From contig PKYG01000091.1 of assembly GCA_003132585.1 (NCBI GenBank), forward strand, positions 18,893-64,385: 45,493 bases of DNA, in the 5' to 3' direction. The notes below the pieces were generated by a model, which was given only the letters and a program-made list of their open reading frames with translations, ran no database searches and had not been told where the DNA came from. The DNA is from Actinomycetota bacterium (GTDB lineage Bacteria; Actinomycetota; Thermoleophilia; UBA2241). The position numbers and the translations under genes were made by a program. Of this stretch, positions 19,133-32,366 are shown piece by piece (position 1 is the stretch's first letter; each line of letters opens with the position of its first letter).

Positions 19133-22100
19133 TCACGCCTTCTCGATGCTTGATTCGACGATTGCGATATCGTCGTCGGTGAGACCGTACGCAGCATAGA
19201 CAGCAACGTCTACGCGAGCCCGCAGCATCGTCGCCTCTCTCTCCCAGCGTCGTTGATCTTCCGAAACACGACACAGCTGGACTTGCTTCTTGGCTTCCTG
19301 CAGCGCAGTCACTGACTCGGTGATGTCATCGTGGATTCGTCTCTCATGTGCGTTGTTGGGACTCAGCACGCGAACCGGCCGTCTCTCGATGTACTGCTTG
19401 TTCGCGGCATAGTAGCCGCCTCGGAAGCTGGTTGAGATGCGCTTGAGGTAGAAGTCGAGTGCTCGATTGTTCAGAAGCGCACAGAGATACGCCATCGACC
19501 CGAAGGAGGGGTCGACGGTGAGGCCGTAGCCTCCCGTGGTCACGTTGATGAAGTAGAAGTTGTCGGTCAAATCGCAGTAGGCGGCTAGGTCAGTGACCAT
19601 ATACGGGACAAGCAGTTTAGGCTGCTCCCAGCACCCGAGGTTCTGGGTGCGACCGAACCGATACCACGACGCATCTCTGAACCCACCGTGCTCGCGGGCT
19701 TCGAGTTCGCAACGATTGAGCTCCAGATAGGCACGGGCAAGTGGATAGCGATCCTGCAGCGCCTGTCCGGTAAGAAGATGCGCATCGGTGCCCACGAGGT
19801 CGTACGGAAACAGAACCTTCGCCGTCGCGTGCGCCCAGTATTGGCCAATCGAGCCGCTACGGACGACGTCTTTCAAGGCCGCCGACTCAAGCGTTACCCA
19901 CCTGCCAATCGACTTCGAGAACACGTCCGTCAGCCCGCTCTCTTGAGACAGGTTATGCTCCTTAAACACGAAGACCGGATCCGCGCTGGTCTGTTGCCCA
20001 ACGAACATGCCCGTAACAACATCGCGCAAGCGGACCGGCATGGTATCGAGCCGCTCGAACAAGCTCGCGCACCGTCCAACAACGAAAGCCCAGTCCGAAC
20101 TCCCATAGGAATCGGCCGGCAGCTCGTCGACAATCGGCTTCTCACCATTGCGCCAAGCTGGAATATCGTCAACCGGCACAAAGGCGAAGCGTGGTGAACG
20201 TGCCTTGCTGAGAAGAAGGAGGCACGTGTACGTCGAAGCGTTGGTGAAGACCTGGCTGTGGCCAAAGTGAACGACCCGATCTAGGTGCCCGCCCTTGGCG
20301 AGTAGGCCGCGCAACGGCTCCCCGTACTGTGCGTTGAAGAACTTGTGCGGCAGGATGTAGCCAAGGCGGCCGGCCTCGTTGAGCAGAGACAGGCCCCGCT
20401 CGACGAACACCACGTAGATGTCGTAGTTGCCCTTGCTCGCCGCGACGTATCGCTTCTTGTAGAACTCAACTTCGCGCGGCGCGAACTCCTTCAGGTTCTG
20501 GATGCGGATATACGGCGGATTCCCGATCACTGCGTCGAACCCGCGCTGCTCCTCCGGCACCGCCTTCCCCTGAATCTGCGGGAACTCCGCCTCCCAGTCG
20601 AAGACGTTGATGCGGTAGCGCTCCTCGTCGTCGAGGCCGGTGAGACCGAGCTGCTGATCGTCGTAGAAGTCCGGGCCGATCAGCGAATTGCCGCACTTGA
20701 TGTTGGCGGCCAGGTCGGGCAGGGCGCGCTCGTGCAAGAAGCTGAGCTGGGCGTCGATTGTCTCCGACGTCTCGCCCTCGAGCACCTTGAGCAGCAGGCT
20801 CAGTTTGGTCGTCTCCACGGCCTGGGAGTCGATGTCGACGCCGTAGATGTTGTTCAGCAGTATCCGCTTCTTTTCGGCCGTGGTGAGCTGCCACTCGCCG
20901 GCGCGGCCCTGCACGATCGGCTTGTTCTTCTTGTCGAGCGCGTGCTCCACGTACCAGTCGCGGTGCCAGTCGAGCAGGCACTGGTAGGCGCCGATGAGGA
21001 ACGAGCCCGAGCCGCAGGCGGGATCGAGGATGCGGAGGTCGGCCGCCTGCTTGGGCGCAAGCCCCTCGAGCAGGCGGCCCACTGTGTTCTTGACGATGTA
21101 GTCGACGATGTAGGTCGGCGTGTAGTACACGCCGCCGGCCTTCTTGACCTCGGGCTTGTCCTCGACCTTGGCCTGGTGCCCCGTCGTGAGGCGGATCACC
21201 TTGCCGAGGAACTGCTCGTAGACCTGCCCCAGGATGTCGGCGGGCAGCACGCTGAACTCGTACGGGCTCTCCGGGTAGTACAGCCGCTTGAGGATCTCCT
21301 TGAGCACCCTGTCGTCGATCACCAGATCGGGGGTGAGCGTGTCGGGCGCGTCCGCGCGCCCCCTCTCTTGCTCGAAGTGGAAGAGGCCGGAGTTGTAACG
21401 ATGGTCGGCCTCGAAGAACAGGGTTCTCAGCCGCTCCCACACGTTCTGGCCGTTCACCAGACCCTGCAGCCGCCCGTAGGGTTCGATCAGCCGGTCCTCG
21501 CAGATGCGCAGGAAGATGATGCGGTCGATCGTCGCCTGCACGGCGTAGTTGAGCTCGCGCGTGCTCAGCGAGCGGTTGCGCAGCGCGATGTTGCGCGCGA
21601 GCTCGTCGCGCCAGCTCTCGATCTCCTTGAGAAAGGCGGTGTCGACCTCGGCCGTGCCCTTCTTCGCCTTGGTCGACTCGGCGTACTGGTCGAACGAGCC
21701 CTTGTAGATCGCGTCCTTGCTGAAGATCGACGCGATCTCGTCCCAGCGGTGCTCGTACTCGTCGAAGGTCGCGTACATGATGCGTGCGACCGGCGATTTG
21801 TCGGTGTTCGCCGGTCGCACGCGGCAGTCGTAAACGACGAACTCCTGGAAGTCGGTGACGATGCTCAGCGGCAGCTTGGCCGACCAGGCGTAGCGGCGAA
21901 GCTGGTAGGCCGGGCTGGGGTCGTCCTTGAGGTTGACCGCGGGCTTCTTCGCCTCGACAAAGAACTTGCGCGCGCCTCCTACTCTGAACGAGTAGTCCGG
22001 CGCCCGGCTGTCGATGCCCACCTTGATCGCGTCTTCGTGCACCACGTCGCGGTACTGCGGCGCGTTGCCGGCGGAGTTGTCGACGTCCCAGCTCAGCGCC

Positions 22101-22222
22101 TTGAAGAACGGGTCGATGAACTCGATGCGCACCTGGGTCTCGTTGTAGGCGGGGTTGAGATAGGTGGTGAAGTTGTGCCTGAAGCGCTCAACGAGCTCGA
22201 CAACCGCATCGGGTGCGCCCAC
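19133..22222 (-). CDS. Single-chain type IIG (Eco57I/TaqI-like) restriction-modification enzyme
   Basis: N-terminal PDY...VEAKK nuclease, GVYYTP, LDPACGSGSFL, GNPPY m6A MTase motifs, C-terminal TRD. Confidence 0.92.
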   Translation of the reverse strand: MGAPDAVVELVERFRHNFTTYLNPAYNETQVRIEFIDPFFKALSWDVDNSAGNAPQYRDVVHEDAIKVGIDSRAPDYSFRVGGARKFFVEAKKPAVNLKDDPSPAYQLRRYAWSAKLPLSIVTDFQEFVVYDCRVRPANTDKSPVARIMYATFDEYEHRWDEIASIFSKDAIYKGSFDQYAESTKAKKGTAEVDTAFLKEIESWRDELARNIALRNRSLSTRELNYAVQATIDRIIFLRICEDRLIEPYGRLQGLVNGQNVWERLRTLFFEADHRYNSGLFHFEQERGRADAPDTLTPDLVIDDRVLKEILKRLYYPESPYEFSVLPADILGQVYEQFLGKVIRLTTGHQAKVEDKPEVKKAGGVYYTPTYIVDYIVKNTVGRLLEGLAPKQAADLRILDPACGSGSFLIGAYQCLLDWHRDWYVEHALDKKNKPIVQGRAGEWQLTTAEKKRILLNNIYGVDIDSQAVETTKLSLLLKVLEGETSETIDAQLSFLHERALPDLAANIKCGNSLIGPDFYDDQQLGLTGLDDEERYRINVFDWEAEFPQIQGKAVPEEQRGFDAVIGNPPYIRIQNLKEFAPREVEFYKKRYVAASKGNYDIYVVFVERGLSLLNEAGRLGYILPHKFFNAQYGEPLRGLLAKGGHLDRVVHFGHSQVFTNASTYTCLLLLSKARSPRFAFVPVDDIPAWRNGEKPIVDELPADSYGSSDWAFVVGRCASLFERLDTMPVRLRDVVTGMFVGQQTSADPVFVFKEHNLSQESGLTDVFSKSIGRWVTLESAALKDVVRSGSIGQYWAHATAKVLFPYDLVGTDAHLLTGQALQDRYPLARAYLELNRCELEAREHGGFRDASWYRFGRTQNLGCWEQPKLLVPYMVTDLAAYCDLTDNFYFINVTTGGYGLTVDPSFGSMAYLCALLNNRALDFYLKRISTSFRGGYYAANKQYIERRPVRVLSPNNAHERRIHDDITESVTALQEAKKQVQLCRVSEDQRRWEREATMLRARVDVAVYAAYGLTDDDIAIVESSIEKA

Positions 22223-22326
22223 GTTACCCCCCTGGCAGGTGTGGTGACGCGCCCAGTCTACACGGGCGCGGGGACGTCGGCGTGCGGCCAGTCCGCGGAA
22301 CCTCCATCACCGAAAGTCGCCATTGT

Positions 22327-22363
22327 TCAAACGGTTTGACGATTACCAGCAAGAGCGTACTGT
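22327..22363 (+). promoter_or_regulatory. Promoter with palindrome over the -35
   Basis: TCAAAC-G-GTTTGA (22327-22339) overlapping TTGACG-N16-TACTGT. Confidence 0.45.
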
Positions 22364-22411
22364 CGCTGCTTCTGGTCTACGACTTCAATCTGGCAACTTG
22401 GAGGTGCTGGT

Positions 22412-23014
22412 ATGAGTCAAGTCGTTGGGAGTCAAGCCATTGCGACGACTCCCAAAGCCAAAGCAGGACCATTCGTGCCCTTGTGGGGTGTTGCAGTCTC
22501 CGGCGCGGTCATTGTGGCGCTCATCGTGACCATCGCCAGCAACTCGCACTTCGGGCTGGATTTCTTCCATGTCTTCGGCGGCGCCCTGTGGGTCAGTATC
22601 GATCTCTTCATGGGCTTCATCATCGGCCCGATCATGGGCCGGCTGGACATTCCCGCCCGAATGGTGTTCTCCAAGAACCTGATGACAAAGATGATGGTCG
22701 TCATGCCCACCGTGGTGATCTGCACTCTGACGTCAGGCTGGCAGCTTGCCCGCTTGGACAATCTCTTCACCACCCCGTACTCGCCCCAGCACGGCTGGAT
22801 TCTGGCAGCGTTGATAGTGGTGGCCTTCCTCGCCATCATCGCCTACGCCTTTCTTGAACCAGCCAACATCGTGGTGCTCATGGAACTGCGCAAACCGGAA
22901 CCCAACGGCTTGCTTATCGGCAGGATGATGCGGCGCTTCCTCTATACCGCCGGCGTTTTGGGGATTCTGCAGCTCTCGATAATCGTCATCATGGTGAGGT
23001 TGGCGACATGGTGA
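22412..23014 (+). CDS. Multi-pass membrane protein (DUF2269/CopD-like)
   Basis: HVFGGALW, TLTSGWQLA, about 5 TMs; RBS GGAGGT. Confidence 0.7.
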   Translation: MSQVVGSQAIATTPKAKAGPFVPLWGVAVSGAVIVALIVTIASNSHFGLDFFHVFGGALWVSIDLFMGFIIGPIMGRLDIPARMVFSKNLMTKMMVVMPTVVICTLTSGWQLARLDNLFTTPYSPQHGWILAALIVVAFLAIIAYAFLEPANIVVLMELRKPEPNGLLIGRMMRRFLYTAGVLGILQLSIIVIMVRLATW

Positions 23015-23427
23015 ATACACCACAACCCTACGCCGGAGACACCAAGCGCTCACCAGTTATCGCGTGCATAGTAGGAACGATCATCTCCTGCATTCTGGCT
23101 GCCGGCATCATCATCGCGCATATTCCCGGACCGGCACCAATGTGGGGATCCATCATGTGGGTGTGCATAGCCGCGGTGCTGACCATAGCTACGATAGTTC
23201 TCATTCTCCGGAAGCGGCCATTCGCCCGGAACACGTTCTTCACTGTGGCGAAATGGGTGTTCCTGTACATCCTGGTGTTGACCGGGATGGGAGAGTACGT
23301 CATTGCATTTGACGGCACGAGGGGGGAACCGCTCGTCGTCATGACCATCATTCTTCTGCTGTTCCTGGTCAATATCCCGATGCTCTGGGGCTTCTCGGTC
23401 GCCCGCCACGAGCGGACTCCTGGTTGA
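23008..23427 (+). CDS. 4-TM hypothetical membrane protein coupled to the upstream gene
   Basis: Four hydrophobic segments; overlaps upstream stop. Confidence 0.7.
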   Translation: MVNTPQPYAGDTKRSPVIACIVGTIISCILAAGIIIAHIPGPAPMWGSIMWVCIAAVLTIATIVLILRKRPFARNTFFTVAKWVFLYILVLTGMGEYVIAFDGTRGEPLVVMTIILLLFLVNIPMLWGFSVARHERTPG

Positions 23428-23453
23428 TCGCGGCTGACCATAGGGCCGAGGTG

Positions 23454-23490
23454 TTGCCTTCCGCTGTCCCGCGGTTATACTTCTGGTATG
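23454..23490 (+). promoter_or_regulatory. TA promoter, probably leaderless transcript
   Basis: TTGCCT-N16-TATACT, ATG 6 nt downstream, no RBS; ATAC-N5-GTAT palindrome. Confidence 0.55.
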
Positions 23491-23724
23491 AAGACAGCGA
23501 TCTCCATCCCCGATGAACTCTTCGACGACGCCGAGAGGCTGGCCCTTGCGCTGAAGAAGTCACGCAGCCGGCTCTACGGCGACGCGGTGCGCGAGTACGT
23601 GGCGCGTCACTCGGCCGATGAGGTCACGGAGGCGCTCGACGTCATCTGCGCAGAAGCAACGTCGAGCGACAGTGACTTCGCCGTCACTGCGGCGCGGAGC
23701 ACGCTCGAGCGGTCCGACTGGTGA
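23488..23724 (+). CDS. RHH/CopG-type antitoxin (ChpI/MazE6-like)
   Basis: MKTAISIPDELFDDAERLA..LKKSRSRLY..AVREYV. Confidence 0.88.
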   Translation: MKTAISIPDELFDDAERLALALKKSRSRLYGDAVREYVARHSADEVTEALDVICAEATSSDSDFAVTAARSTLERSDW

Positions 23725-24062
23725 TCGCCCAGGGCGAGGTCTGGTGGGCCGAGCTGCGCGAGCCGTCGGGCTCCGAACCCGGCTTTCGGCGGCCGGTCGT
23801 CGTCGTGCAGGGCGATTCGTTCAACCGTAGTCGCATCGCCACCGTGGTGTGTGTCGCGCTCACCAGCAACCTGCACTGGGCAGAGGCTCCCGGCAACGTG
23901 TTGCTGACGTCGAAGGCGACGGGGCTGCCCAAGGACTCCGTTGCCAACGTGTCGCAGATCGTTGCGCTCGACCGAGCGTCGCTGACCGAGCGGGTCGGCA
24001 CCCTGCCCGACAAGAAGCTCGAGCTCGTGCTGAGCGGTATCGATATCGTGCTCGGTCGCTGA
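23721..24062 (+). CDS. mazF: PemK/MazF-family toxin
   Basis: GEVWWAEL..PSGSEPGFRRPVVVVQGDSFNRSRI...GLPKDSVANVSQI. Confidence 0.92.
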   Translation: MIAQGEVWWAELREPSGSEPGFRRPVVVVQGDSFNRSRIATVVCVALTSNLHWAEAPGNVLLTSKATGLPKDSVANVSQIVALDRASLTERVGTLPDKKLELVLSGIDIVLGR

Positions 24063-24097
24063 GGCGTTGGTCCTCTTCCCGGTCGCGTTCGGTTGAC

Positions 24098-24352
24098 ATG
24101 AATCCATTGACCGCCTTCGGCGCCGGAGCCGTCACTCTCATGCTGATCTCCTATGCACTGGAGCATCGCGCGGCTCTGTGGATATTGATCTTTGCCTTCG
24201 CCTGCGCTGCTTCGGCGGTCTACGCAGCGCTCGCGAATACTTGGCCCTTCATGGTCGTCGAAAGCATATGGGCGCTGGTAGCCTTGCGGCGGTGGTGGAC
24301 GACGCGCGGCTCAAGCCGTAGGCGCGGCCAACGAGGCAAGCGTTGGACGTGA
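24098..24352 (+). CDS. Small 3-TM membrane protein (CBU_0592-like)
   Basis: MLISYALE...WPFMVVESIWALVALRRW. Confidence 0.7.
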   Translation: MNPLTAFGAGAVTLMLISYALEHRAALWILIFAFACAASAVYAALANTWPFMVVESIWALVALRRWWTTRGSSRRRGQRGKRWT

Positions 24353-24939
24353 TATTCGACCTCGGCGGCGTGCTACTGACCTGGGATCCTCCCGCCATGC
24401 TCTCGTCCGTGTTCGAGGATCCCCACGAGCGTGCGCGGGTGCTCGATCGCCTCTTCGGCGATCCGGACTGGATCGAGCTCGACCGCGGCACGCTTCCGGT
24501 CGCAAAGGCGATCGAGCGCGCCGCGCAGAGAACGGGCATCAGCGCCGACAGGCTGCGCACCTTGTTCGATGTGATGCCTAGCTGGCTGGTGCCCGTGCCG
24601 GCGGCCATCGAGCTCGTCAGAGCCCTTCGGGCCGCCGGCAATCGACTGTTCGTGCTCTCGAACATGCAGCGCGCCACGCTTGCGCACATCGAGACCGCCT
24701 ACGACTTCCTTGCACTGTTCGACGGTCGCGTCTTCTCCTGCGAGGTCGGCGAGTGCAAGCCGGAGCCGGCGATCTATCGCCGCCTCCTCGACACATTCGC
24801 GCTCGACCCAAGCGCCACGGTGTTCATCGACGACCATCAGGCCAACCTCGACGCGGCGGCCGCGTTCGGCATCGCGACTATCAGGTTCGAGACGGTTGAG
24901 GGGTGCCGTGCGGAGCTCGAGGCGCTGGGGTGCGTCTAA
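24343..24939 (+). CDS. HAD-family phosphatase
   Basis: VIFDLGGVL, LSNM, KPEPAIY, FIDDHQANL; stop inside GTCTAAC (R''-like). Confidence 0.9.
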   Translation: MDVIFDLGGVLLTWDPPAMLSSVFEDPHERARVLDRLFGDPDWIELDRGTLPVAKAIERAAQRTGISADRLRTLFDVMPSWLVPVPAAIELVRALRAAGNRLFVLSNMQRATLAHIETAYDFLALFDGRVFSCEVGECKPEPAIYRRLLDTFALDPSATVFIDDHQANLDAAAAFGIATIRFETVEGCRAELEALGCV

Positions 24940-25331
24940 CCCAGGTGCGAACGCAGCCATGCCGCGAGTTCCTCTTCATCGAGTTCGCCGGCAGCGAGCG
25001 CGAGCATGACGGTCACGACCTCCGCCTCAGGCGCAGCGAGATCGCGGCCGTTGAGCCCCAGGAAGACCCCCATCGTCACGAAGGCGATGCGCTTGTTGCC
25101 GTCGTTGAACGGGTGACTCCGCGCCAGCCCGTGTCCGTACGTCGCAGCCAGACCGGCCAGATCGACTGTGGGCTCGTAGGCGAAGCGCTGCTGGGCACGG
25201 GCAAGCGCGGACTCCAGGGCGTGCTCGTCGCGGATGCCCGGCATCCCTCCATGCTCGCGGATCAGGTCGAGGTGCACTGCCTCGACGACCAGCCGGTCGA
25301 CCCACCGCGGCTCCGCGGTTTGACGCGCCAC
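24936..25331 (-). CDS. doc: Doc/Fic-family toxin
   Basis: HPFNDGNKRIAF Fic motif; HGGMPGIRD. Confidence 0.93.
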   Translation of the reverse strand: MARQTAEPRWVDRLVVEAVHLDLIREHGGMPGIRDEHALESALARAQQRFAYEPTVDLAGLAATYGHGLARSHPFNDGNKRIAFVTMGVFLGLNGRDLAAPEAEVVTVMLALAAGELDEEELAAWLRSHLG

Positions 25332-25806: not shown

Positions 25807-26871
25807 CTACCGCGGCCGCCAATCGGGTTCCTCTGCGTTGTCGATGCCCGGCACCGCGGAGAGCCCGGAGCCGTCGGCGTTCACGATGTAGAGGCGAGAG
25901 CCGTGAGACCCCATGTGAGAACTGCTCGCCATTGCCAAAGCCTTCCCGTCCGGCGTCCACGCTGGCGCGGCGTAGGGGTCCGGCGTGATGAAGTCCGAGA
26001 TGGGGTGGAGGACCGTCACCGGAGTCCCGCCCCCACGCGCGGGCACGATCTCGATGCTCTGACTCGTCTTGCTGTCGATGGCGATCCTCTTGCCGTCCGG
26101 CGAGAGTGCGAAGTCGCCGATGTTCCCGACCTTCGTCAGCTGGACGAGTCCGCTCCCGTCGTGGCCGATCGCGCAGACGTCGCTGAGCCGTAGGAAGAGG
26201 ATCTTGCCGCTCGGCGCCCAGGCGGGGAAGTGGTCGACCTGCCCACCAGGAGGTGTTCCAGGAGCCGGGTGCGTCACGCGCCTGAGACCGCTGCCGTCGG
26301 CCTTCACCGAGAAGATGGCGTGCTCCTCCAACGACAGAGCTCTCATGAAGGCGATCTTCTTGCCGTCCGGTGACCACACCGCCCAGTCGCCTCTCACCGA
26401 CCCCTTCGTCAGGCGCCTCTTGTTCGAGCCGTCGGCGTTCATGACCCACAAGGTGGCGTATATCGTGTCATCGGCCCTGGGGGCGTACACGGCGTATACG
26501 ATCCTGGTTCCGTCCGGAGACCAGGAGGGGTTGGTCTCCCAGCCGGGGGTATCTGTCAGCTGCTTGAGAGCCGTGCCGTCGGGGTTGACGACATAGATGT
26601 CACTGTTCCCGCCGTCCCCAGTTGTTACGACTTTCGCGAAGGCGATGGTGCCGGCGACGGTGGGTCTCGGCAGAGGTGTCGCGCTCTCGCTCGGCGCCAC
26701 CGAAGGCGAGGGCGAAGCGCTCGGCGAGGTCGATGCCATAGGGCTCGCGCCGCCGCAGGCGCCGAGCGCGAGCACGAGAACTGCGACAACGACGAGCGAC
26801 GAGAATGCGGCGGTCAGCGCGGTCACGCCCCACGTGGGCGCGCGTGACGCTGATCTCCCGATCCCTCTCAT
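25807..26871 (-). CDS. TolB/PD40-like beta-propeller lipoprotein, paralogue 1
   Basis: LALGACGG lipobox, SPS linker, repeated PSWSPDG..I and MNADGS motifs. Confidence 0.88.
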   Translation of the reverse strand: MRGIGRSASRAPTWGVTALTAAFSSLVVVAVLVLALGACGGASPMASTSPSASPSPSVAPSESATPLPRPTVAGTIAFAKVVTTGDGGNSDIYVVNPDGTALKQLTDTPGWETNPSWSPDGTRIVYAVYAPRADDTIYATLWVMNADGSNKRRLTKGSVRGDWAVWSPDGKKIAFMRALSLEEHAIFSVKADGSGLRRVTHPAPGTPPGGQVDHFPAWAPSGKILFLRLSDVCAIGHDGSGLVQLTKVGNIGDFALSPDGKRIAIDSKTSQSIEIVPARGGGTPVTVLHPISDFITPDPYAAPAWTPDGKALAMASSSHMGSHGSRLYIVNADGSGLSAVPGIDNAEEPDWRPR

Positions 26872-26887
26872 GGCCTTGCCCCCTCCC

Positions 26888-27937
26888 CTATCGCGGCCGC
26901 CAGGCGGGGTCGACAGCATTGTCGATGCCCGGGACCGCGGAGAGGCCGGAGCCGTCGGCGTTCACGATGTAGAGGCGAGAGCCTCCTCCGTCTGCGTGCC
27001 CGGTCCAGCTGCTGCTCGCTAAGGCCAGCGCTTGCCCGTCCGGCGTCCACGCAGGAGCGGCGTTGGGGGCATCTGGGATGAAGTCCGAAACTGGCTCCAG
27101 AAGTGCCACTGGGCTCCCGCCGCCATGGGCGGCAACCACCGCGACACGGTCACTGTTGTTGTAGTGGACGGCGATCCTCTTGCCGTCTGGCGAGAGCGCG
27201 AACTCGACGATGTTCTCGCCCTTCGTCAGCTGGACAAGTCCGCTCCCGTCGGGGTTCACCGCAAACACCTGGCCCTGCCGAAGGAGGAGGATCTTGCCGT
27301 TGGGCGCCCAGGCGGGGAACAAGTCGTTGACCGCCGCACCAGGCGTCCCCCCAGCAGGCGGGCGCGTCGCGCGCCTAAGACCGCTGCCGTCGGCGTTCAT
27401 GACGAAGATGCAGTACCCGTCTGGCAGGGGATTCACGAAAGCGATCTGCTTGCCGTCCGGCGACCACGACGGGTATATGCCTCTGACCGCACCCTTCGTC
27501 AACTGTGCCTTCCCGGAGCCGTCCGCGTTCATGATCCACACGCTCGCGTCTTCGACTCCAGACCATCCTCGAGGGTAGCCGCCGTAGACGATCCTGCGCC
27601 CGTCCGGCGACCAGGCGGGGCGCTCCTCGACGCCGGGGTCGTCGGTCAGCCGCTCGAGGCCTGTGCCGTCGGCGTTGACGACGTAGATGTCGGCGTTGCC
27701 GCCGATCCCAGGTTCTACCAATCTCGTGAACGCGATGGTACCGGCGACGGTCGGCGTGGGCAGAGGAGTCGCGCTCTGAGACGGCTCTGCCGAGGGCGAA
27801 GCCATCAGGCTCGGCGAGTTCGATGCCGTGGTGCTCGTGCCCCCGCACGACGCGAGTGCGAGCGCCGCAATCGCGACGAGCAACGACAGTGCGACGTTGA
27901 TGGCTACGCATGGTGGTGACTCTCCTAGCCTCTTCAT
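26888..27937 (-). CDS. TolB/PD40-like beta-propeller lipoprotein, paralogue 2
   Basis: LALASCGG, PAWSPDGRRI, IYVVNADGTG, DPAWRPR. Confidence 0.88.
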   Translation of the reverse strand: MKRLGESPPCVAINVALSLLVAIAALALASCGGTSTTASNSPSLMASPSAEPSQSATPLPTPTVAGTIAFTRLVEPGIGGNADIYVVNADGTGLERLTDDPGVEERPAWSPDGRRIVYGGYPRGWSGVEDASVWIMNADGSGKAQLTKGAVRGIYPSWSPDGKQIAFVNPLPDGYCIFVMNADGSGLRRATRPPAGGTPGAAVNDLFPAWAPNGKILLLRQGQVFAVNPDGSGLVQLTKGENIVEFALSPDGKRIAVHYNNSDRVAVVAAHGGGSPVALLEPVSDFIPDAPNAAPAWTPDGQALALASSSWTGHADGGGSRLYIVNADGSGLSAVPGIDNAVDPAWRPR

Positions 27938-27987
27938 GACCCGCCCCTTCCCCTTTGGCCCCTTGGCTCCTAAGAGGTCGGTCCCCA

Positions 27988-28085
27988 GAAAGCACGAAGA
28001 CCGGCCGACGGGCCGGTCTCACTAGTGGCTCCCCGCCGGACTGCGGTGGCCGCAGCGGTACGTCCGGCGGATCACAGCCTCCCGT
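27988..28085 (-). promoter_or_regulatory. c-di-GMP-II-type riboswitch with overlapping terminator (copy A)
   Basis: ACGGGAGGCTGTGATCCGCCGGA...GCGGCCAC...TCCGGCGGGGAGCCACTAGTGAGACCGGCCCGT: P1, kink-turn GA motifs, CAC/GTG pseudoknot; hairpin AGACCGGCC/GGCCGGTCT + TCGTGCTTTCT. Confidence 0.78.
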
Positions 28086-28152
28086 GTGCAGTGCTGCACC
28101 TATCAGGAGTCTCGTACGACGATTGTATATCCCGACGCGGTGACGAGGTCAA
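28086..28152 (-). promoter_or_regulatory. Repeated promoter/leader (copy A)
   Basis: TTGACC-N17-TATACA then TACGAGACTCCTGATAGGTGCAGC. Confidence 0.65.
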
Positions 28153-28192
28153 GCGTACGGGGATCGCGGCGATCGACCAGAGCGCGGTGAGC

Positions 28193-28525
28193 TCAGGGCT
28201 GTTCGAAGAGCAGGACTCGGATACATTCGCCCGCAGCGGGTTCCATCCTGTGGGCGTCTGCTTCACCGGCGAGGATTATGCCGGTGTCGCCCGGCCGCAA
28301 GCGGATGGCTCTCCCTCCGTCCCTGAACCGAAGGGTGGACTCACCGGCGAGCACGTGGAGGAGGTGCCCCTGCGTGCACCAGCTGTCCCTCACGTATCCT
28401 TCCGCGAACTCGATCAGATCCACCTCCTGACCGTCGCGCACGCAGGTCTTGCTGCGAAAACCCTTTTGGGGCTCGCCCTCGACCTCGTCCCAAGGCATGT
28501 TCTCCCAATCGATCATGACGTCCAT
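28193..28525 (-). CDS. Cupin-domain protein
   Basis: IDWENMPW, WCTQGHLLHVLAGE, LRPGD, AHRM. Confidence 0.8.
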   Translation of the reverse strand: MDVMIDWENMPWDEVEGEPQKGFRSKTCVRDGQEVDLIEFAEGYVRDSWCTQGHLLHVLAGESTLRFRDGGRAIRLRPGDTGIILAGEADAHRMEPAAGECIRVLLFEQP

Positions 28526-28560
28526 GGTTCCCTCCTCGTATCCTCAGCTTCCTCTGGCAG

Positions 28561-28635
28561 TCCCGTCGCCGCGCTGCACCTGTCAGGAGTCTCGTATGGT
28601 GGCGGTGTACCCCCGTGCAGTGATGGGTTCAAGCG
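28561..28635 (-). repeat. Third copy of the promoter/leader, lacking the riboswitch aptamer
   Basis: TTGAAC...TACGAGACTCCTGACAGGTGCAGCGC...ACGGGA, then diverges into the cupin RBS. Confidence 0.65.
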
Positions 28636-28682
28636 TTTGGGGCGCGCGGTCCGCTGGCTGAACCCGCGGCCGGCCGTCGGAG

Positions 28683-28967
28683 TCAGAGCTCCTTGGTCTC
28701 CACCGTCTCGACGATCCGCGCTTGCGGCTCCACGATCACCGTCCCCTCCACCCGACTCCACACCTGGCGCATCGCGGCGAGAAGTGCCTCGGCCTCGCTC
28801 TGAGTGTCGAACTCGAGGTCGATCATGACGTAGTTGGGATCGTCGATCGATCGCAAGACCTGGTAACGACGCACGCCCGACTTTTTCCGATCGACAGGGT
28901 CGCTGTCGAAGGCCCTCTTCCAGCCGTCGAAGTTGGGGACTGAGTGTTCGATTCGCAGAATTGGCAT
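28683..28967 (-). CDS. Dimeric alpha/beta-barrel (ABM-like) protein
   Basis: HSVPNFDGWKRAFDSDP..RKKSGVRRYQVLRSIDDPNYVMIDLEF. Confidence 0.8.
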   Translation of the reverse strand: MPILRIEHSVPNFDGWKRAFDSDPVDRKKSGVRRYQVLRSIDDPNYVMIDLEFDTQSEAEALLAAMRQVWSRVEGTVIVEPQARIVETVETKEL

Positions 28968-29117
28968 GTCATCTCTCCCCTGCTTGGCATCGTCGACCAG
29001 CAGGCGCTCTCAGTGGCAAGGTACGCCGCGGCAATCGCGCGGATTCGGAAGGCAAAGTGCGCCGAGGGCGCAGTTCACACCGCGCCCTCGGCGCACTCGA
29101 TCAAGCTGTCGGCCTGG

Positions 29118-29417
29118 TCAGGCGGCCACGCGGCTTGCGTACGTGCGGGTTTCGCCATCGCGCACCCACGTCGCCACGGGTGGTGTCTCCACGCCGGCAC
29201 GCTTCATGATCGCCGCGAGCTCCGGATCCGTGCGCAGGGAGTCCCCGGCCTCGCGGGACGGGAAGCGCAGATGGACGGTCAGGTCATTGCCGTCTTCGTC
29301 GCCGCGGAAGATCTCGTGACCGGTGCAGCCATGCTTCGCGCGCAGCGGCTCGCCGTCGTCGAAGACCGACTTCCACGTGTCGTAGTCACGTACTCTCTCT
29401 CGCATGATGAGGATCAT
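29118..29417 (-). CDS. Dimeric alpha/beta-barrel (ABM-like) protein
   Basis: VRDYDTWKSVFD..RAKHG...IFRGDEDGND...MKRAGV..PP. Confidence 0.8.
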   Translation of the reverse strand: MILIMRERVRDYDTWKSVFDDGEPLRAKHGCTGHEIFRGDEDGNDLTVHLRFPSREAGDSLRTDPELAAIMKRAGVETPPVATWVRDGETRTYASRVAA

Positions 29418-29546
29418 GATCGCCTCTCGAAGGGAGCGGGGGCGCCGCTCCTGTCCAGAGTCGCACGCTTGCCCACAATAGTGTGTCGTACCGCACTATT
29501 GCCGACCACTAACGCGTTGCGTGGCGGGGACGACTGAGGGGTTGGC

Positions 29547-29588
29547 TGGTGGACCGCGGTGGAGCCGCGCCCCCAACCTCCGCCGTGC
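29547..29588 (-). repeat. Degenerate duplicate of tRNA-Ala 3' half (att-like scar)
   Basis: 35/42 identical by manual alignment to 32291-32332, from the CCA end to the anticodon loop. Confidence 0.8.
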
Positions 29589-29645
29589 TGACGCGGGCCT
29601 GTCGCGTCCCCGCGTGCCGAGAGCCTAACGCGCTGGCCGGAAGCC

Positions 29646-30689
29646 CTACCGCGGCCGCCAGGCGGGGTCCTCCGCGTTGTCGATGCCCGGAACCGCGGAG
29701 AGGCCGGAGCCGTCGGCGTTCACGATGTAGAGGCGAGAGCCATAGAATCCAAGGTAGTCGCTGCTCGCCACCGCCAGCGCGTGTCCATCCAGCGTCCACG
29801 CAGGAGCAGCTTTGGGGTCGTTTGGGATGAAGTCCGACACCGGGTCGAGGAGCGTCACCGGAGTGCCGCCGCCATGCGCCGGAACCACCGCGACACGGTC
29901 ACTGTTGTTGTAGTGAACGGCGATCCTCTTGCCGTCCGGCGAGAGCGCGAACCATATAATGTTCTCGCCCTTCGTCAGCTGGACAAGTCCGCTCCCGTCG
30001 GGGTTCACCGCGAACACCTGGCCAAGCCGAAGAAGGAGGATCTTGCCGTTCGGCGCCCAGGTGGGCGAGTTCTCGTCGGCCTGCGTACCAGGCGATGTCC
30101 CGGCAGCCGGGCGCGTCACGCGCTTAAGACCGCTGCCGTCGGCGTTGATCACGAAGGTGGCGAACCGTTCTGGCAGCAAGAGCCTTATGAAGGCGATCTG
30201 TTTGCCGTCGGGCGACCACGTCGGCCAGGCGCCTCTGCCCGACCCCTTGGTCAGCTTGACCTTCCCGGAGCCGTCCGCGTTCATGACCCAGACGGTCGCG
30301 TCTTCGATGTCATCGCTTCCTTCGGCAATGACGTCGTAGACGATCCTGCTCCCGTCCGGGGACCAGGAGGGGTGGTCCTCCCAGCCGGGAGCTTCGGCCA
30401 AGGCTTTGAGACCCGTGCCGTCGGCGTTGACGACGTAGATGTCGCCGTTGCCGCCCTCGCCTGGTCTTACTACTCTCTCGAACGCGATCGTGCCGGCGAC
30501 GGTCGGTGTCGGCAGGGGAGTCGCACTCGGAGACGGCTCGGCCGAGGGTGAGGTCATCGCGCTCGGCGAGGTCGATGCCGCGGTGCTCGCGCCGCCGCAC
30601 GACGCGAGCGCGAGCACCGCGATCGCGACGAGCAGCGGTAGCAGCAACGCGACCGATGCAGGTGATCTGGATCCCCACGGCGTCTTCAT
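29646..30689 (-). CDS. TolB/PD40-like beta-propeller lipoprotein, paralogue 3
   Basis: LALASCGG, PSWSPDGSRI, PTWSPDGKQI, DPAWRPR. Confidence 0.88.
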   Translation of the reverse strand: MKTPWGSRSPASVALLLPLLVAIAVLALASCGGASTAASTSPSAMTSPSAEPSPSATPLPTPTVAGTIAFERVVRPGEGGNGDIYVVNADGTGLKALAEAPGWEDHPSWSPDGSRIVYDVIAEGSDDIEDATVWVMNADGSGKVKLTKGSGRGAWPTWSPDGKQIAFIRLLLPERFATFVINADGSGLKRVTRPAAGTSPGTQADENSPTWAPNGKILLLRLGQVFAVNPDGSGLVQLTKGENIIWFALSPDGKRIAVHYNNSDRVAVVPAHGGGTPVTLLDPVSDFIPNDPKAAPAWTLDGHALAVASSDYLGFYGSRLYIVNADGSGLSAVPGIDNAEDPAWRPR

Positions 30690-30796
30690 GACTCTCCCCC
30701 TCCACTTGGCCGTTTGGCTCTTGAGCGGCCCGGACCCCGCCGGTGTCCGGGCCGCTCGCGTGTGCTCGTGAAGTCAGTCTGTGATGCTCAGCGACG

Positions 30797-31375
30797 TCAA
30801 CGCACGGCGCGCATCGCCGCTTGCCGGCAGCCGCTGCCGATTGCCTCATGGTGAGGCAATCGACACCCATCGGATCCCTTCCAGCGGATCATCCCAGCGT
30901 ACGTCGCACTGCTGTCGAAGCCGGAGCTGACCCATGTGCCGCTCCCGCTCACGTGCTTCAGCGCCTTCGTCCCGGAAAGGATGACCCAGGTCCCGGTCAT
31001 CACCGTACTGTTCGCCGCCTCGCGAATGGTGAAGAACATCGTCATGTGGCCGTTCTTGCCACCAACCTTGCCCTTGAACGTAGCCGTGAGCGTGCCCCAG
31101 GCGGCGCCCCACTCCGGACCCTCCAAGGGTGGCGCGAACGTCATCTCGAAGACGTCGTACGAGCTGCCTGCGAACGTGCCCGTCCACGTGCCGTATTCGT
31201 CACCGTCGACCAACATGTCCCCGTTGTCCAGCGTCGTTATCGTGGCGCTGTTGTTGACCCACGACCAGTTGCCCGACACGTGGGTCGTGGTGCAGGGCGG
31301 CGCCGCCAGAGCGGCAGGTGCGACGGCCATGGCCAGCACCAACACGATCCCTGCGATGATCAATCTCGCTTTCAT
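30797..31375 (-). CDS. Secreted beta-barrel protein (DUF3224/allene-oxide-cyclase-like)
   Basis: Signal peptide MKARLII...ALA; GTWTGTFAG, GTWVILSGTKALKHVSGSG; RBS GAGGAGGG. Confidence 0.65.
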   Translation of the reverse strand: MKARLIIAGIVLVLAMAVAPAALAAPPCTTTHVSGNWSWVNNSATITTLDNGDMLVDGDEYGTWTGTFAGSSYDVFEMTFAPPLEGPEWGAAWGTLTATFKGKVGGKNGHMTMFFTIREAANSTVMTGTWVILSGTKALKHVSGSGTWVSSGFDSSATYAGMIRWKGSDGCRLPHHEAIGSGCRQAAMRAVR

Positions 31376-31591
31376 CAGAGTCCCCTCCTCGTTACCTCGG
31401 TTTCCGTTGTCCGTGCCCGCGTCTCTCGTGCATAGGCCCTCCTTCTGCTCTCCGCCGATGTCGTGGCGACCGCGGACCATCGCTCCGACCCGCGACGCAG
31501 CCCCGTTGCCGGGCGCCGCGCTGGGCAGCGCACGGCGAGGACGTCCGCGGCGGCACGAGGCGCGCAGCCGCGGTCGTCCTCTTTGGAGGGA

Positions 31592-31897
31592 TCAGATCAG
31601 CAGGCAGAGGCCGCCGGGAACGGCGGCGAGCAGGCCCGGGGCGCTGAGGCGCAGCCGGGCGGGAAGCGTGGCGGGACGCCGGGAGGCGTCGCCGGCGGGT
31701 ACTGCGCGGGAGACCTCGTCACGTGCGCAGGAGAAGCCGTCGGCCCGGCAGAGCGAGACGCTGAGGTCGCCGTCTTCGTCGAAGGCACAGACGAGACCGA
31801 AGAGCACGGCGAGGACGACGCAGCACAGAACGAGCGTCCACTCAAGGCGCGTGCCCGAAGCGACGCCGAGACAGCCGGTGGAATACCGAGGTGTCAA
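31592..31897 (-). CDS. Small hypothetical membrane/leader protein directly after the riboswitch
   Basis: TTG after GAAGGAG; one TM with Cys residues; ends ...LCLLI. Confidence 0.35.
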   Translation of the reverse strand: MTPRYSTGCLGVASGTRLEWTLVLCCVVLAVLFGLVCAFDEDGDLSVSLCRADGFSCARDEVSRAVPAGDASRRPATLPARLRLSAPGLLAAVPGGLCLLI

Positions 31898-31969
31898 CGT
31901 CGCCCTCGTTTCTCCTTCACGGCCCGACTCCTCCTCGTCGGCACCTGCTCCCCCGAGGGGTCGGTCCCC

Positions 31970-32067
31970 AGAAAGCACGAAGACCGGCCCGCGGGCCGGT
32001 CTCACCAATGGCTCCCCGCCGGATGATGGTGGCCGCGACGTGCCTCCGGCGGATCAGAGCTTCCCGT
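31970..32067 (-). promoter_or_regulatory. c-di-GMP-II-type riboswitch with overlapping terminator (copy B)
   Basis: ACGGGAAGCTCTGATCCGCCGGA...GCGGCCACC...TCCGGCGGGGAGCCATTGGTGAGACCGGCCCGC + GGGCCGGTCTTCGTGCTTTCT. Confidence 0.78.
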
Positions 32068-32134
32068 ATAGAGCGCTGCTCGTATCAAGAGTCTCGTACT
32101 TTGATGGTCTATACCTACGCAGTGACAGCGTCAA
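32068..32134 (-). promoter_or_regulatory. Repeated promoter/leader (copy B)
   Basis: TTGACG-N17-TAGACC then TACGAGACTCTTGATACGAGCAGC. Confidence 0.65.
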
Positions 32135-32290: not shown

Positions 32291-32366
32291 TGGTGGACCG
32301 CAGGGGAGTCGAACCCCTGACCTCCGCCGTGCAAAGGCGGCGCTCTCCCATCTGAGCTAGCGGCCC
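32291..32366 (-). tRNA. tRNA-Ala(TGC)
   Basis: GGGCCGCTAGCTCAGATGGGAGAGCGCCGCCTTTGCACGGCGGAGGTCAGGGGTTCGACTCCCCTGCGGTCCACCA; G3:U70, encoded CCA. Confidence 0.97.

What the first reader, a model, noticed from the sequence alone, without database searches (positions are those of the whole stretch)
27988..32134. Two c-di-GMP-II-like riboswitches with variant pocket bases controlling surface-protein genes
Seen: two homologous leaders with class II architecture, each overlapped by a terminator that competes with P1 (predicted ON switch). Compared with the canonical ..UGGGCAC...GUGCAACCG (recalled from clostridial examples), both read ..CGGCCAC...GUGAGACCG: a covarying U-A to C-G change at a ligand-contacting pair, resembling the c-di-GMP-II-GAG variant. 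Inferred: cyclic-dinucleotide control of the propeller lipoproteins, possibly with altered ligand preference.
Basis: partly seen in the sequence, partly recalled or inferred. Interest (0 to 1): 0.7.

Follow-up and report, generated by a model that had tools for sequence, protein, structure and literature searches.

The report
Two c-di-GMP-II-GAG variant riboswitches
Two copies of an already catalogued riboswitch variant sit before genes for membrane-anchored and secreted proteins and probably switch them on by blocking a transcription terminator; they are good new examples of a known RNA family whose signal molecule is still unproven.

Summary
Rfam's c-di-GMP-II-GAG model (RF03169) matches the minus strand at 28002-28091 (65.4 bits) and 31985-32073 (60.6 bits), above its cut-off of 40. 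Both places score lower with the GCG model and fall below the cut-off of the canonical c-di-GMP-II model. Each aptamer's 3' strand is also the left arm of a 10-bp terminator hairpin, which fits an ON switch.

The first copy leads a two-gene operon of PD40 beta-propeller lipoproteins. The second copy is followed first by a small membrane protein and a secreted protein; a third propeller lipoprotein lies 1.3 kb further on, and its control by this copy is uncertain.

The family is common in this lineage:
- 33 of 101 relatives carry it, with up to 7 copies per genome.
- 35 of 151 sampled genomes of the phylum carry it.
- Most downstream genes there encode proteins with N-terminal hydrophobic segments.
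- Earlier notes of this scan report it in at least 14 other genomes.

I found no reported ligand. The genome has many GGDEF genes and no detected c-di-AMP or SMODS-type synthase, so c-di-GMP is the likeliest signal, but this is inferred.

Verdict: new members of a known kind, of modest interest.

The parts
28147..28152 (-). -35 box (TTGACC) of the promoter of riboswitch 1
   Evidence: Read directly. It lies 17 nt from the -10 box, and the same layout is conserved upstream of many relatives' copies. The consensus scan did not list it.
28124..28129 (-). -10 box (TATACA) of the promoter of riboswitch 1
   Evidence: Read directly; aligned with the other two promoter copies.
28103..28116 (-). Conserved leader motif TACGAGACTCCTGA, at about the predicted transcript start
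   Evidence: There are six promoter-context copies in the genome, only two of them with an aptamer. The motif is conserved in relatives. Its function is unknown.
28086..28099 (-). Small 6-bp hairpin (P0) just 5' of the aptamer core. Its 3' arm is what Rfam models as the outer part of P1.
   Evidence: a hairpin of at least 5 bp occurs in 32 of 82 lineage copies, against 15% with shuffled upstream sequence. Rfam's six outer P1 positions pair at a mean of only 2.8 of 6.
28002..28091 (-). Riboswitch 1 aptamer, c-di-GMP-II-GAG (RF03169)
   Evidence: 65.4 bits against a cut-off of 40. Helices are supported.
27987..28020 (-). Terminator hairpin of riboswitch 1 with its U-rich tail. Its left arm lies inside the aptamer.
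   Evidence: 10 pairs, tail CGTGCTTTCT; -21 kcal/mol. The hairpin is conserved at this place in most relatives.
26888..27937 (-). PD40 beta-propeller lipoprotein A (349 aa), first gene after riboswitch 1
   Evidence: PF07676, E 2.2e-25. The lipobox LASC is read from the translation.
25807..26874 (-). PD40 beta-propeller lipoprotein A2 (paralog), immediately downstream and probably in the same operon. The start codon is uncertain; the ORF is open from 26919.
   Evidence: PF07676, E 4.9e-27; 63% identity to A.
32129..32134 (-). -35 box (TTGACG) of the promoter of riboswitch 2
   Evidence: Read directly; aligned with the promoter of riboswitch 1.
32106..32111 (-). -10 box (TAGACC) of the promoter of riboswitch 2
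   Evidence: Read directly. The spacer is 17 nt, and the box matches the relatives' consensus.
32085..32098 (-). Conserved leader motif (TACGAGACTCTTGA)
31985..32073 (-). Riboswitch 2 aptamer, c-di-GMP-II-GAG (RF03169)
   Evidence: 60.6 bits against a cut-off of 40.
31970..32003 (-). Terminator hairpin of riboswitch 2 with its U-rich tail
   Evidence: (-23.4 kcal/mol)
31592..31897 (-). Small predicted membrane protein (101 aa, TTG start), first gene after riboswitch 2
   Evidence: A 48%-identical homolog lies in a relative's riboswitch-rich region (L033). No Pfam family matched.
30797..31375 (-). Secreted protein (192 aa, with a signal peptide) and a weak DUF3224 likeness
   Evidence: PF11528, E 0.0017, below its cut-off. 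In another genome a 37%-identical homolog is the first gene after a GAG riboswitch (L067).
30723..30757 (-). Strong inverted repeat between the secreted-protein gene and propeller B, with no U tail. It may end or process the transcript.
   Evidence: arms of 17 nt, 94% complementary. The terminator scan did not list it.
29646..30689 (-). PD40 beta-propeller lipoprotein B (347 aa). Control by riboswitch 2 is possible but not shown.
   Evidence: PF07676, E 2.3e-25; 74% identity to A. I saw no promoter of the shared type directly upstream.

Best explanation
Both elements are members of the catalogued c-di-GMP-II-GAG riboswitch family and act as transcriptional ON switches.

Proposed mechanism:
- A sigma-70-like promoter starts a transcript that carries a conserved 5' motif, a small hairpin and then the aptamer. 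The aptamer has a short P1, P2, a long P3 and a pseudoknot between the P3 loop and the 3' strand.
- The 3' strand (GAGACCGG) and the P1 3' strand (CCCG) together form the left arm of a 10-bp G+C-rich terminator hairpin.
- Without ligand the terminator forms and transcription stops before the gene.
- With ligand bound, the pseudoknot and P1 hold that arm, the terminator cannot form, and RNA polymerase reads on.

Riboswitch 1 would turn on two PD40 beta-propeller lipoproteins. Riboswitch 2 would turn on a small membrane protein and a secreted protein, and perhaps a third propeller lipoprotein.

The ligand is most likely c-di-GMP, at about 0.55-0.6, because GGDEF is the only cyclic-dinucleotide synthase family I detected in the genome.

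Shown: family membership, helix support, the overlap of terminator and aptamer, and the gene products. Inferred: the direction of the switch, the ligand, and the extent of the second operon.
For: Family membership:
- RF03169 scores 65.4 and 60.6 bits against a cut-off of 40.
- Both scores are higher than for the sibling models.

Structure, on 82 distinct lineage sequences:
- 88.7% of cells are paired, against 29-43% with slid partners.
- The covariation score is 0.203, against 0.04-0.06.
- 0 of 500 shuffles reach the observed value.

Expression platform:
- Terminator-like sites overlap both aptamers, at -21 and -23.4 kcal/mol.
- The same hairpin and tail follow most of the 82 lineage copies.

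Gene products:
- The downstream genes encode PD40 lipoproteins.
- In relatives, 52 of 78 first ORFs have an N-terminal hydrophobic stretch, against 8 of 20 other window genes. This is a crude measure.

Ligand:
- The genome has 23 GGDEF matches at E<=1e-10 and 3 EAL matches.
- No DAC domain, no c-di-AMP riboswitch and no SMODS domain were found.
- 13 of the 14 GGDEF domains caught by a recalled motif have Asp at the base-reading position, and none has Ser or Thr.
- All 33 relatives with the riboswitch also have GGDEF genes.
Against: - No ligand is reported for this variant in anything I could read. By inference the position that reads one guanine in the canonical class (A69) is G here, so specificity may differ.
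- The terminator tail is a poor U tract (CGUGCUUUCU), and the hairpin z-scores are modest.
- GGDEF genes occur in 97 of 101 relatives, so their presence does not discriminate.
- The genome is only 91% complete, so a missing synthase is not proof of absence.
- 0 of the 58 first downstream proteins scanned in relatives carry GGDEF or EAL domains. Canonical c-di-GMP riboswitches often control such genes (this point is recalled).
- There is no expression evidence: the RNA-library contigs were uninformative.
Confidence: 0.78

Rival explanations
1. The RNA and the ON-switch mechanism are the same, but the ligand is not c-di-GMP. The variant pocket would sense another dinucleotide, such as 3'3'-cGAMP, a linear pGpG-type product or an unknown signal. 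That would give a second regulon alongside the c-di-GMP-I-type riboswitches of the same genome.
For: - The canonical model scores below its cut-off while the GAG model fits.
- In the canonical structure A69 reads one guanine and G73 the other. By spacing, the variant's strand puts G at position 69 (inference).
- The same genome has three c-di-GMP-I-type aptamers, two of them before pilin-like genes. A separate class could therefore carry a separate signal.
- Single changes in this scaffold shift specificity among cyclic dinucleotides.
Against: - GGDEF is the only synthase family detected. None of the 14 domains examined has the Ser/Thr signature that I recall for cGAMP-making GGDEFs.
- No DAC or SMODS domain was found.
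- Two riboswitch classes for one ligand in one genome is known from clostridia (recalled).
Confidence: 0.3
2. The aptamers are real, but the hairpin is not a working terminator. Control would act on translation or RNA stability, or would be an OFF switch.
For: - The tail is U-poor.
- A conserved purine-rich stretch and a further possible pairing (CGGGAGGC with GCUUUCUG) appear in the minimum-energy folds.
- The start codons lie 64 and 87 nt beyond the aptamers.
Against: - The hairpin and tail are conserved right at the aptamer's end in most of the 82 copies.
- The ribosome-binding sites lie well outside the aptamer.
- The shared arm logic gives ON, not OFF.
Confidence: 0.1
3. The elements are decaying copies of a duplicated regulatory cassette and have no present function.
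For: - Four other copies of the same promoter and leader in the genome lack the aptamer.
- The region before propeller B looks like a degraded 3' part of the element.
Against: - Both copies match the model over its full length, 1-86 of 86 positions.
- Both keep every nearly invariant position of the lineage alignment.
- Both keep an intact terminator.
Confidence: 0.03

Closest known systems
c-di-GMP-II-GAG riboswitch aptamer (Rfam RF03169, clan CL00127). By my recollection it was proposed by Weinberg et al., PNAS 2017, a paper I could not open.
   Same: Both copies match the model over its full length and above the cut-off, with P1, P2, P3, the pseudoknot strand GAGACCG and a 5'-UTR position.
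   Different: In this lineage the outer part of the modelled P1 is not paired: a mean of 2.8 of 6 positions. Its 5' strand often forms a separate small hairpin with upstream sequence. A conserved promoter-proximal motif and a near-identical terminator accompany the aptamer.
Canonical c-di-GMP-II riboswitch (Rfam RF01786; structure 3Q3Z as described in PMC13715770)
   Same: Same overall fold class: a three-way junction with a pseudoknot, and G at the position of G73.
   Different: The scores of 45.5 and 37.7 bits are below the cut-off of 53.5. By spacing, the position equivalent to A69 is G, and the loop partner is C/U paired to it (the mapping is inferred).
c-di-GMP-II-GCG riboswitch aptamer (Rfam RF03170)
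   Same: Both places also pass this model's cut-off: 51.9 and 49.3 bits against 47.9.
   Different: They score 11-13 bits lower than with the GAG model, and the strand reads GAG, not GCG.
c-di-GMP-I / c-di-GMP-I-GGC riboswitches (RF01051 / RF03167) of the same genome
   Same: They are cyclic-dinucleotide-type leaders before envelope genes; here two of the three stand before pilin-like genes.
   Different: They have an unrelated fold and belong to another clan.

Membership tests
c-di-GMP-II-GAG (RF03169) | Covariance-model score at or above the curated gathering score | tested here: met
   65.4 and 60.6 bits against 40, over the full model length 1-86
c-di-GMP-II-GAG (RF03169) | Fits this model better than the other models of the clan | tested here: met
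   GCG model 51.9/49.3 bits; canonical model 45.5/37.7 bits; cmscan's clan competition kept GAG
c-di-GMP-II-GAG (RF03169) | Helices P1, P2 and P3, and the pseudoknot between the P3 loop and the 3' strand | tested here: met
   88.7% of cells paired against 29-43% with slid partners. By helix: P2 97%, P3 94%, pseudoknot 97% (nearly invariant, so little covariation), P1 82% over the inner 5 pairs. The alignment was fitted to a model built from these sequences.
c-di-GMP-II-GAG (RF03169) | Signature 3' strand GAGACCG, with G where the canonical class has the guanine-reading A | tested here: met
   Both copies read GUGAGACCGG against the consensus GGCGAGACCG. The mapping onto A69/A70/G73 of 3Q3Z is inferred from the numbering and from recall.
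c-di-GMP-II-GAG (RF03169) | Cis-regulatory position: in a 5' UTR, on the gene's strand, with an expression platform | tested here: met
   Promoter-like boxes lie upstream, a terminator overlaps the aptamer, and start codons follow 64 and 87 nt downstream.
c-di-GMP-II-GAG (RF03169) | Binding of a specific ligand | not testable with these tools
   I found no reported ligand. The defining paper is not held.
Canonical c-di-GMP-II (RF01786) | Covariance-model score at or above the gathering score | tested here: not met
   45.5 and 37.7 bits against 53.5
Canonical c-di-GMP-II (RF01786) | Adenine at the position that reads G-alpha (A69 of 3Q3Z) | tested here: inconclusive
   By spacing the position is G here, but I could not see a canonical alignment.
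Intrinsic (factor-independent) terminator | G+C-rich hairpin followed by a U-rich tail | tested here: met
   One search lists both sites (10 pairs, 7 G-C, loop of 4). The tail passes the scan's rule of at least 5 T in a window of 8 but is interrupted. Four sites were found in the region against 2.5 expected from shuffles.
PD40 / TolB-like beta-propeller (PF07676) lipoprotein | PD40 repeats, and a signal peptide with a lipobox cysteine | tested here: met
   PF07676 at E 2e-25 to 5e-27 for A, A2 and B. The lipoboxes LASC, LGAC and LASC are read from the translations; no signal-peptide predictor was run.

The most novel reading that the evidence does not exclude
The GAG variant does not sense c-di-GMP. 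It would sense a different, possibly still unknown, dinucleotide-type signal. In this peat and soil actinobacterial family that signal would run a large separate regulon of envelope proteins (up to 7 leaders per genome), alongside the c-di-GMP-I-type riboswitches that control pilin-like genes in the same cell. The roughly 80 near-identical aptamer-terminator cassettes found here would then be a ready test set for finding that signal.
Probability: 0.25. Interest if true: 0.75.

Novelty: new member of a known kind. Interest (0 to 1): 0.3.

Why it matters
The family is already in Rfam and is common in the phylum, so its presence here is not a surprise. Its value lies in the material it offers:
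- This uncultured lineage carries many closely related copies with a clean terminator platform.
- The downstream genes are mostly for proteins with N-terminal hydrophobic segments.
- Within one genome there are paralogous genes with and without the aptamer.
- Only one detected cyclic-dinucleotide synthase family is present.

Together these make it a convenient system for settling what the orphan GAG variant binds, and for asking how a riboswitch module is gained or lost between paralogs.

Tried and rejected
**Long-range helix.** I asked whether the conserved 5' motif (CUCCUGA) pairs with the purine-rich stretch after the terminator. Duplex energies were the same for cognate and non-cognate pairs (-13.7 against -13.9 kcal/mol) and close to shuffled sequence (-12.2, sd 2.75), on the 40 leaders that had the motif, out of 82. 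The helix is not supported. One aptamer-less paralog leader in which the two elements would form a simple hairpin remains a single anecdote.

**Expression evidence.**
- Of the 22 runs listed, the DNA runs that hold the stretch are peat or soil metagenomes; the RNA runs hold only 0.00-0.07 of its sampled words.
- Laying four RNA-library contig sets gave short pieces. Two cover the aptamer (28011-28085 and 28009-28089) and then diverge, so they come from related copies. Contigs cannot show transcript ends. No conclusion follows.

**Propeller relatives elsewhere.** Riboswitches were not found next to relatives of the propeller protein in other lineages: 0 matches in 79 loci. The link between aptamer and propeller is therefore local to this family.

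**Literature.**
- The term 'c-di-GMP-II-GAG' occurs in 2 held papers, in both only as a model name: passages read for PMC9943018, listing only for PMC11539752.
- Weinberg et al., NAR 2017 (PMC5737381): passages read, no mention of the variant.
- PMC5473149: passages read, nothing on the variant.
- Searches gave nothing on its ligand.
- Weinberg et al., PNAS 2017 (PMC5358364) and Smith et al. 2011 (PMC3093532) are not held. Their supplements could bear on the pocket mapping and on any binding tests.

**Other checks without a result.**
- The search for the DncV-like family was uninformative, because its control rang nowhere.
- The look-up of earlier notes around this place returned nothing.


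Full report
**1. The observation**

A scan of the whole window against Rfam gives three matches: a tRNA and two c-di-GMP-II-GAG aptamers (RF03169). Both aptamers are on the minus strand, at 28002-28091 (65.4 bits, E 6.2e-11) and 31985-32073 (60.6 bits, E 1e-09). The gathering score is 40, and both cover model positions 1-86. They are the only two matches in the 3.0-Mb, 142-contig, 91%-complete genome that holds the window.

The same two places score 51.9/49.3 bits with the GCG variant model (cut-off 47.9). With the canonical c-di-GMP-II model they score 45.5/37.7 bits, below its cut-off of 53.5.

**2. Anatomy**

All elements lie on the minus strand. Each leader has these parts, in order:
- a sigma-70-like promoter: TTGACC, 17 nt, TATACA for copy 1; TTGACG, 17 nt, TAGACC for copy 2 (read, aligned);
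- a conserved motif, TACGAGACTC(C/T)TGA, at about the predicted transcript start;
- a small hairpin;
- the aptamer;
- a 10-bp hairpin (GAGACCGGCC / GGCCGGUCUU) with the tail CGUGCUUUCU, which the terminator scan lists for both copies (-21 and -23.4 kcal/mol).

The left arm of that hairpin is the aptamer's pseudoknot strand plus the 3' strand of P1. The folded aptamer and the terminator therefore exclude each other.

**3. Support from relatives**

RF03169 matches 33 of 101 related genomes, counting the window's own. That includes 28 of the 60 other genomes of the same family, with up to 7 copies per genome. I fetched the surrounding DNA and built a model from 31 copies. It found 89 matches in 70 sources, some of which overlap each other, and 82 of the sequences are distinct.

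On that alignment the structure I wrote down is P1 inner 5 pairs, P2, P3, a 3-pair extension, and the pseudoknot. The counts are:
- 88.7% of cells are paired, against 29-43% when partners are slid;
- the covariation score is 0.203, against 0.04-0.06;
- 0 of 500 shuffles reach the observed value;
- the pseudoknot is 97% paired but almost invariant;
- the loop C (or U) pairs with the middle G of the AGA stretch in 77 of 82 sequences (CG 64, UG 13).

The alignment was fitted to a model derived from these sequences, which favours the structure.

Rfam's six outer P1 positions are poorly paired in this lineage, at a mean of 2.8 of 6. In 32 of 82 copies the 5' strand instead forms a hairpin of at least 5 bp with upstream sequence, against 15% with shuffled upstream sequence. 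The terminator hairpin and its tail follow the aptamer in most copies.

**4. Genes**

*After riboswitch 1.* A 349-aa PD40 beta-propeller protein (26888-27937) is followed at once by a paralog (25807-26874). Both have signal peptides ending in a lipobox cysteine.

*After riboswitch 2.* The genes, in order, are:
- a 101-aa predicted membrane protein (31592-31897), with a 48%-identical homolog in a relative's riboswitch-rich region;
- a 192-aa secreted protein (30797-31375), whose 37%-identical homolog is the first gene after a GAG riboswitch in another genome;
- a strong inverted repeat without a U tail (30723-30757);
- a third propeller lipoprotein (29646-30689).

I saw no promoter of the shared type before this third gene, so co-transcription from riboswitch 2 is possible but not shown.

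*Between the two operons.* A 110-aa cupin gene (28193-28525) carries the same promoter and leader motif but no aptamer. Its homologs in two other genomes are riboswitch-linked (L017, L037).

*Paralogs elsewhere in the genome.* There are five propeller paralogs in all. The two on another contig also carry the promoter and leader without the aptamer. The aptamer-terminator unit thus behaves as a module that is present in some paralogous leaders and missing in others.

**5. What the family controls in this lineage**

I predicted a first downstream ORF for 78 of the 82 copies. I scanned 58 of the 76 non-window ORFs against Pfam. I left out 6 near-duplicates and 12 short or doubtful ORFs.

Families found:
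- PD40 propellers (4);
- other propeller or repeat proteins (PQQ/BamB-like, NHL, FG-GAP);
- SnoaL-like proteins (4);
- solute-binding proteins (2);
- TIG-domain proteins;
- peptidases (A4, trypsin-like);
- an ECF sigma factor, with two near-duplicates among the ORFs I left out;
- a LuxR-type and an ArsR-type regulator;
- a hemerythrin;
- a cupin.

29 of the 58 had no family, and none had a GGDEF or EAL domain. By a crude measure, 52 of 78 first ORFs have an N-terminal hydrophobic stretch, against 8 of 20 other genes of the window. Relatives of the propeller protein in other lineages (best 53% identity, an uncultured Actinomycetota genome) have no such riboswitch: 0 of 79 loci.

**6. The ligand**

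I found no report of a ligand for this variant. The term occurs in two held papers, in both only as a model name. The paper that I recall as defining it is not held.

A 2026 structural paper, which I read whole, describes the canonical pocket. A69 reads one guanine, and G73 with the ribose of A70 reads the other. A70 intercalates. An A-U pair of P2 lies against the ligand backbone. Small changes in this scaffold shift preference among cyclic dinucleotides.

By the spacing A69-A70-C-C-G73, the variant's strand A-G-A-C-C-G puts G at position 69. This mapping is my inference.

Evidence from the genome:
- 23 GGDEF matches at E<=1e-10 and 3 EAL matches;
- no DAC domain, no c-di-AMP riboswitch and no SMODS domain;
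- the DncV-like search was uninformative;
- of the 14 GGDEF domains caught by a recalled motif, 13 have Asp and 1 has Asn at the base-reading position;
- all 33 riboswitch-bearing relatives have GGDEF genes, but so do 97 of 101 relatives overall.

c-di-GMP is therefore the likeliest signal, at about 0.55-0.6. A different GGDEF product or an unknown signal stays open.

The genome also carries three c-di-GMP-I-type aptamers. cmscan assigns them to the GGC variant. Two of them stand before pilin-like genes.

**7. How ordinary it is**

In an even sample of the phylum, 35 of 151 genomes (26 of 116 genera) have matches at E<=1e-6, with 1-6 copies each. This tally includes the window's genome and one unpublished genome, G238; without G238 it is 34 of 150. 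Among the control genomes, Deinococcus radiodurans also rings.

Earlier notes of this scan report the same family in at least 14 other genomes, mostly before surface-protein genes, and none names a ligand. These are unchecked AI notes.

**8. Verdict**

The elements are new members of a known, catalogued riboswitch variant. They most likely act as terminator-based ON switches for envelope proteins, and their ligand is unproven. Interest is modest. The main open question is the ligand, for which this lineage offers unusually rich material.

Noticed in passing
window 28526-28640 (minus strand), before ORF 28193-28525: A third copy of the same promoter and TACGAGACTCCTGA leader stands before a 110-aa cupin gene but has no aptamer or terminator. 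Homologs of this cupin are riboswitch-linked in two other genomes (L017, L037).
   Followed up: partly
own genome, G000:C12 near 42143 and 73236 (also 27529): Two further PD40 lipoprotein paralogs carry the same promoter and leader motif without the aptamer. In one of them the leader and the downstream purine-rich element would form a simple hairpin. The aptamer-terminator unit looks like a module gained or lost between paralogs.
   Followed up: partly
window 30723-30757: A 17-nt inverted repeat (94% complementary) without a U tail lies just before propeller gene B. The flanking sequence resembles a degraded 3' part of the riboswitch.
   Followed up: partly
L151:629-708, L152:374-448, L153:105-179 (own genome, near contig ends): Three c-di-GMP-I-type aptamers, which cmscan assigns best to the c-di-GMP-I-GGC variant. 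Two stand before genes with a type IV pilin N-terminal motif (GFTLIELL).
   Followed up: partly
relatives, e.g. L032:780-820, L034, L035, L067: A second type of upstream region, with the palindrome AATCACCGGATTCCGGTGA about 25 nt before the aptamer, replaces the usual promoter and leader in at least 13 copies. It may be an operator.
   Followed up: no
L008:2477-2580: The 3' half of a riboswitch with an intact terminator is fused to what looks like coding sequence of a PQQ-type propeller gene. It may be a recombination product.
   Followed up: no
window 27985-28091 and 31968-32073 (minus strand): In the minimum-energy folds, the aptamer's 5' strand CGGGAGGC pairs with GCUUUCUG in the terminator tail. 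This may explain why the tail sequence is so conserved.
   Followed up: no
window 32291-32366 (minus strand): A tRNA-Ala (TGC) gene lies about 160 nt upstream of the promoter of riboswitch 2.
   Followed up: no
window 19133-25331: Defence and addiction-type genes lie just downstream of the propeller operon: an Eco57I/MmeI-like restriction-modification fusion (19133-22222), a MazF/PemK-like ORF (23721-24062) and a Fic/DOC ORF (24936-25331).
   Followed up: no
own genome: No diadenylate cyclase (DAC) domain and no c-di-AMP riboswitch were detected in this 91%-complete actinobacterial genome. By my recollection most Actinomycetota have both.
   Followed up: partly
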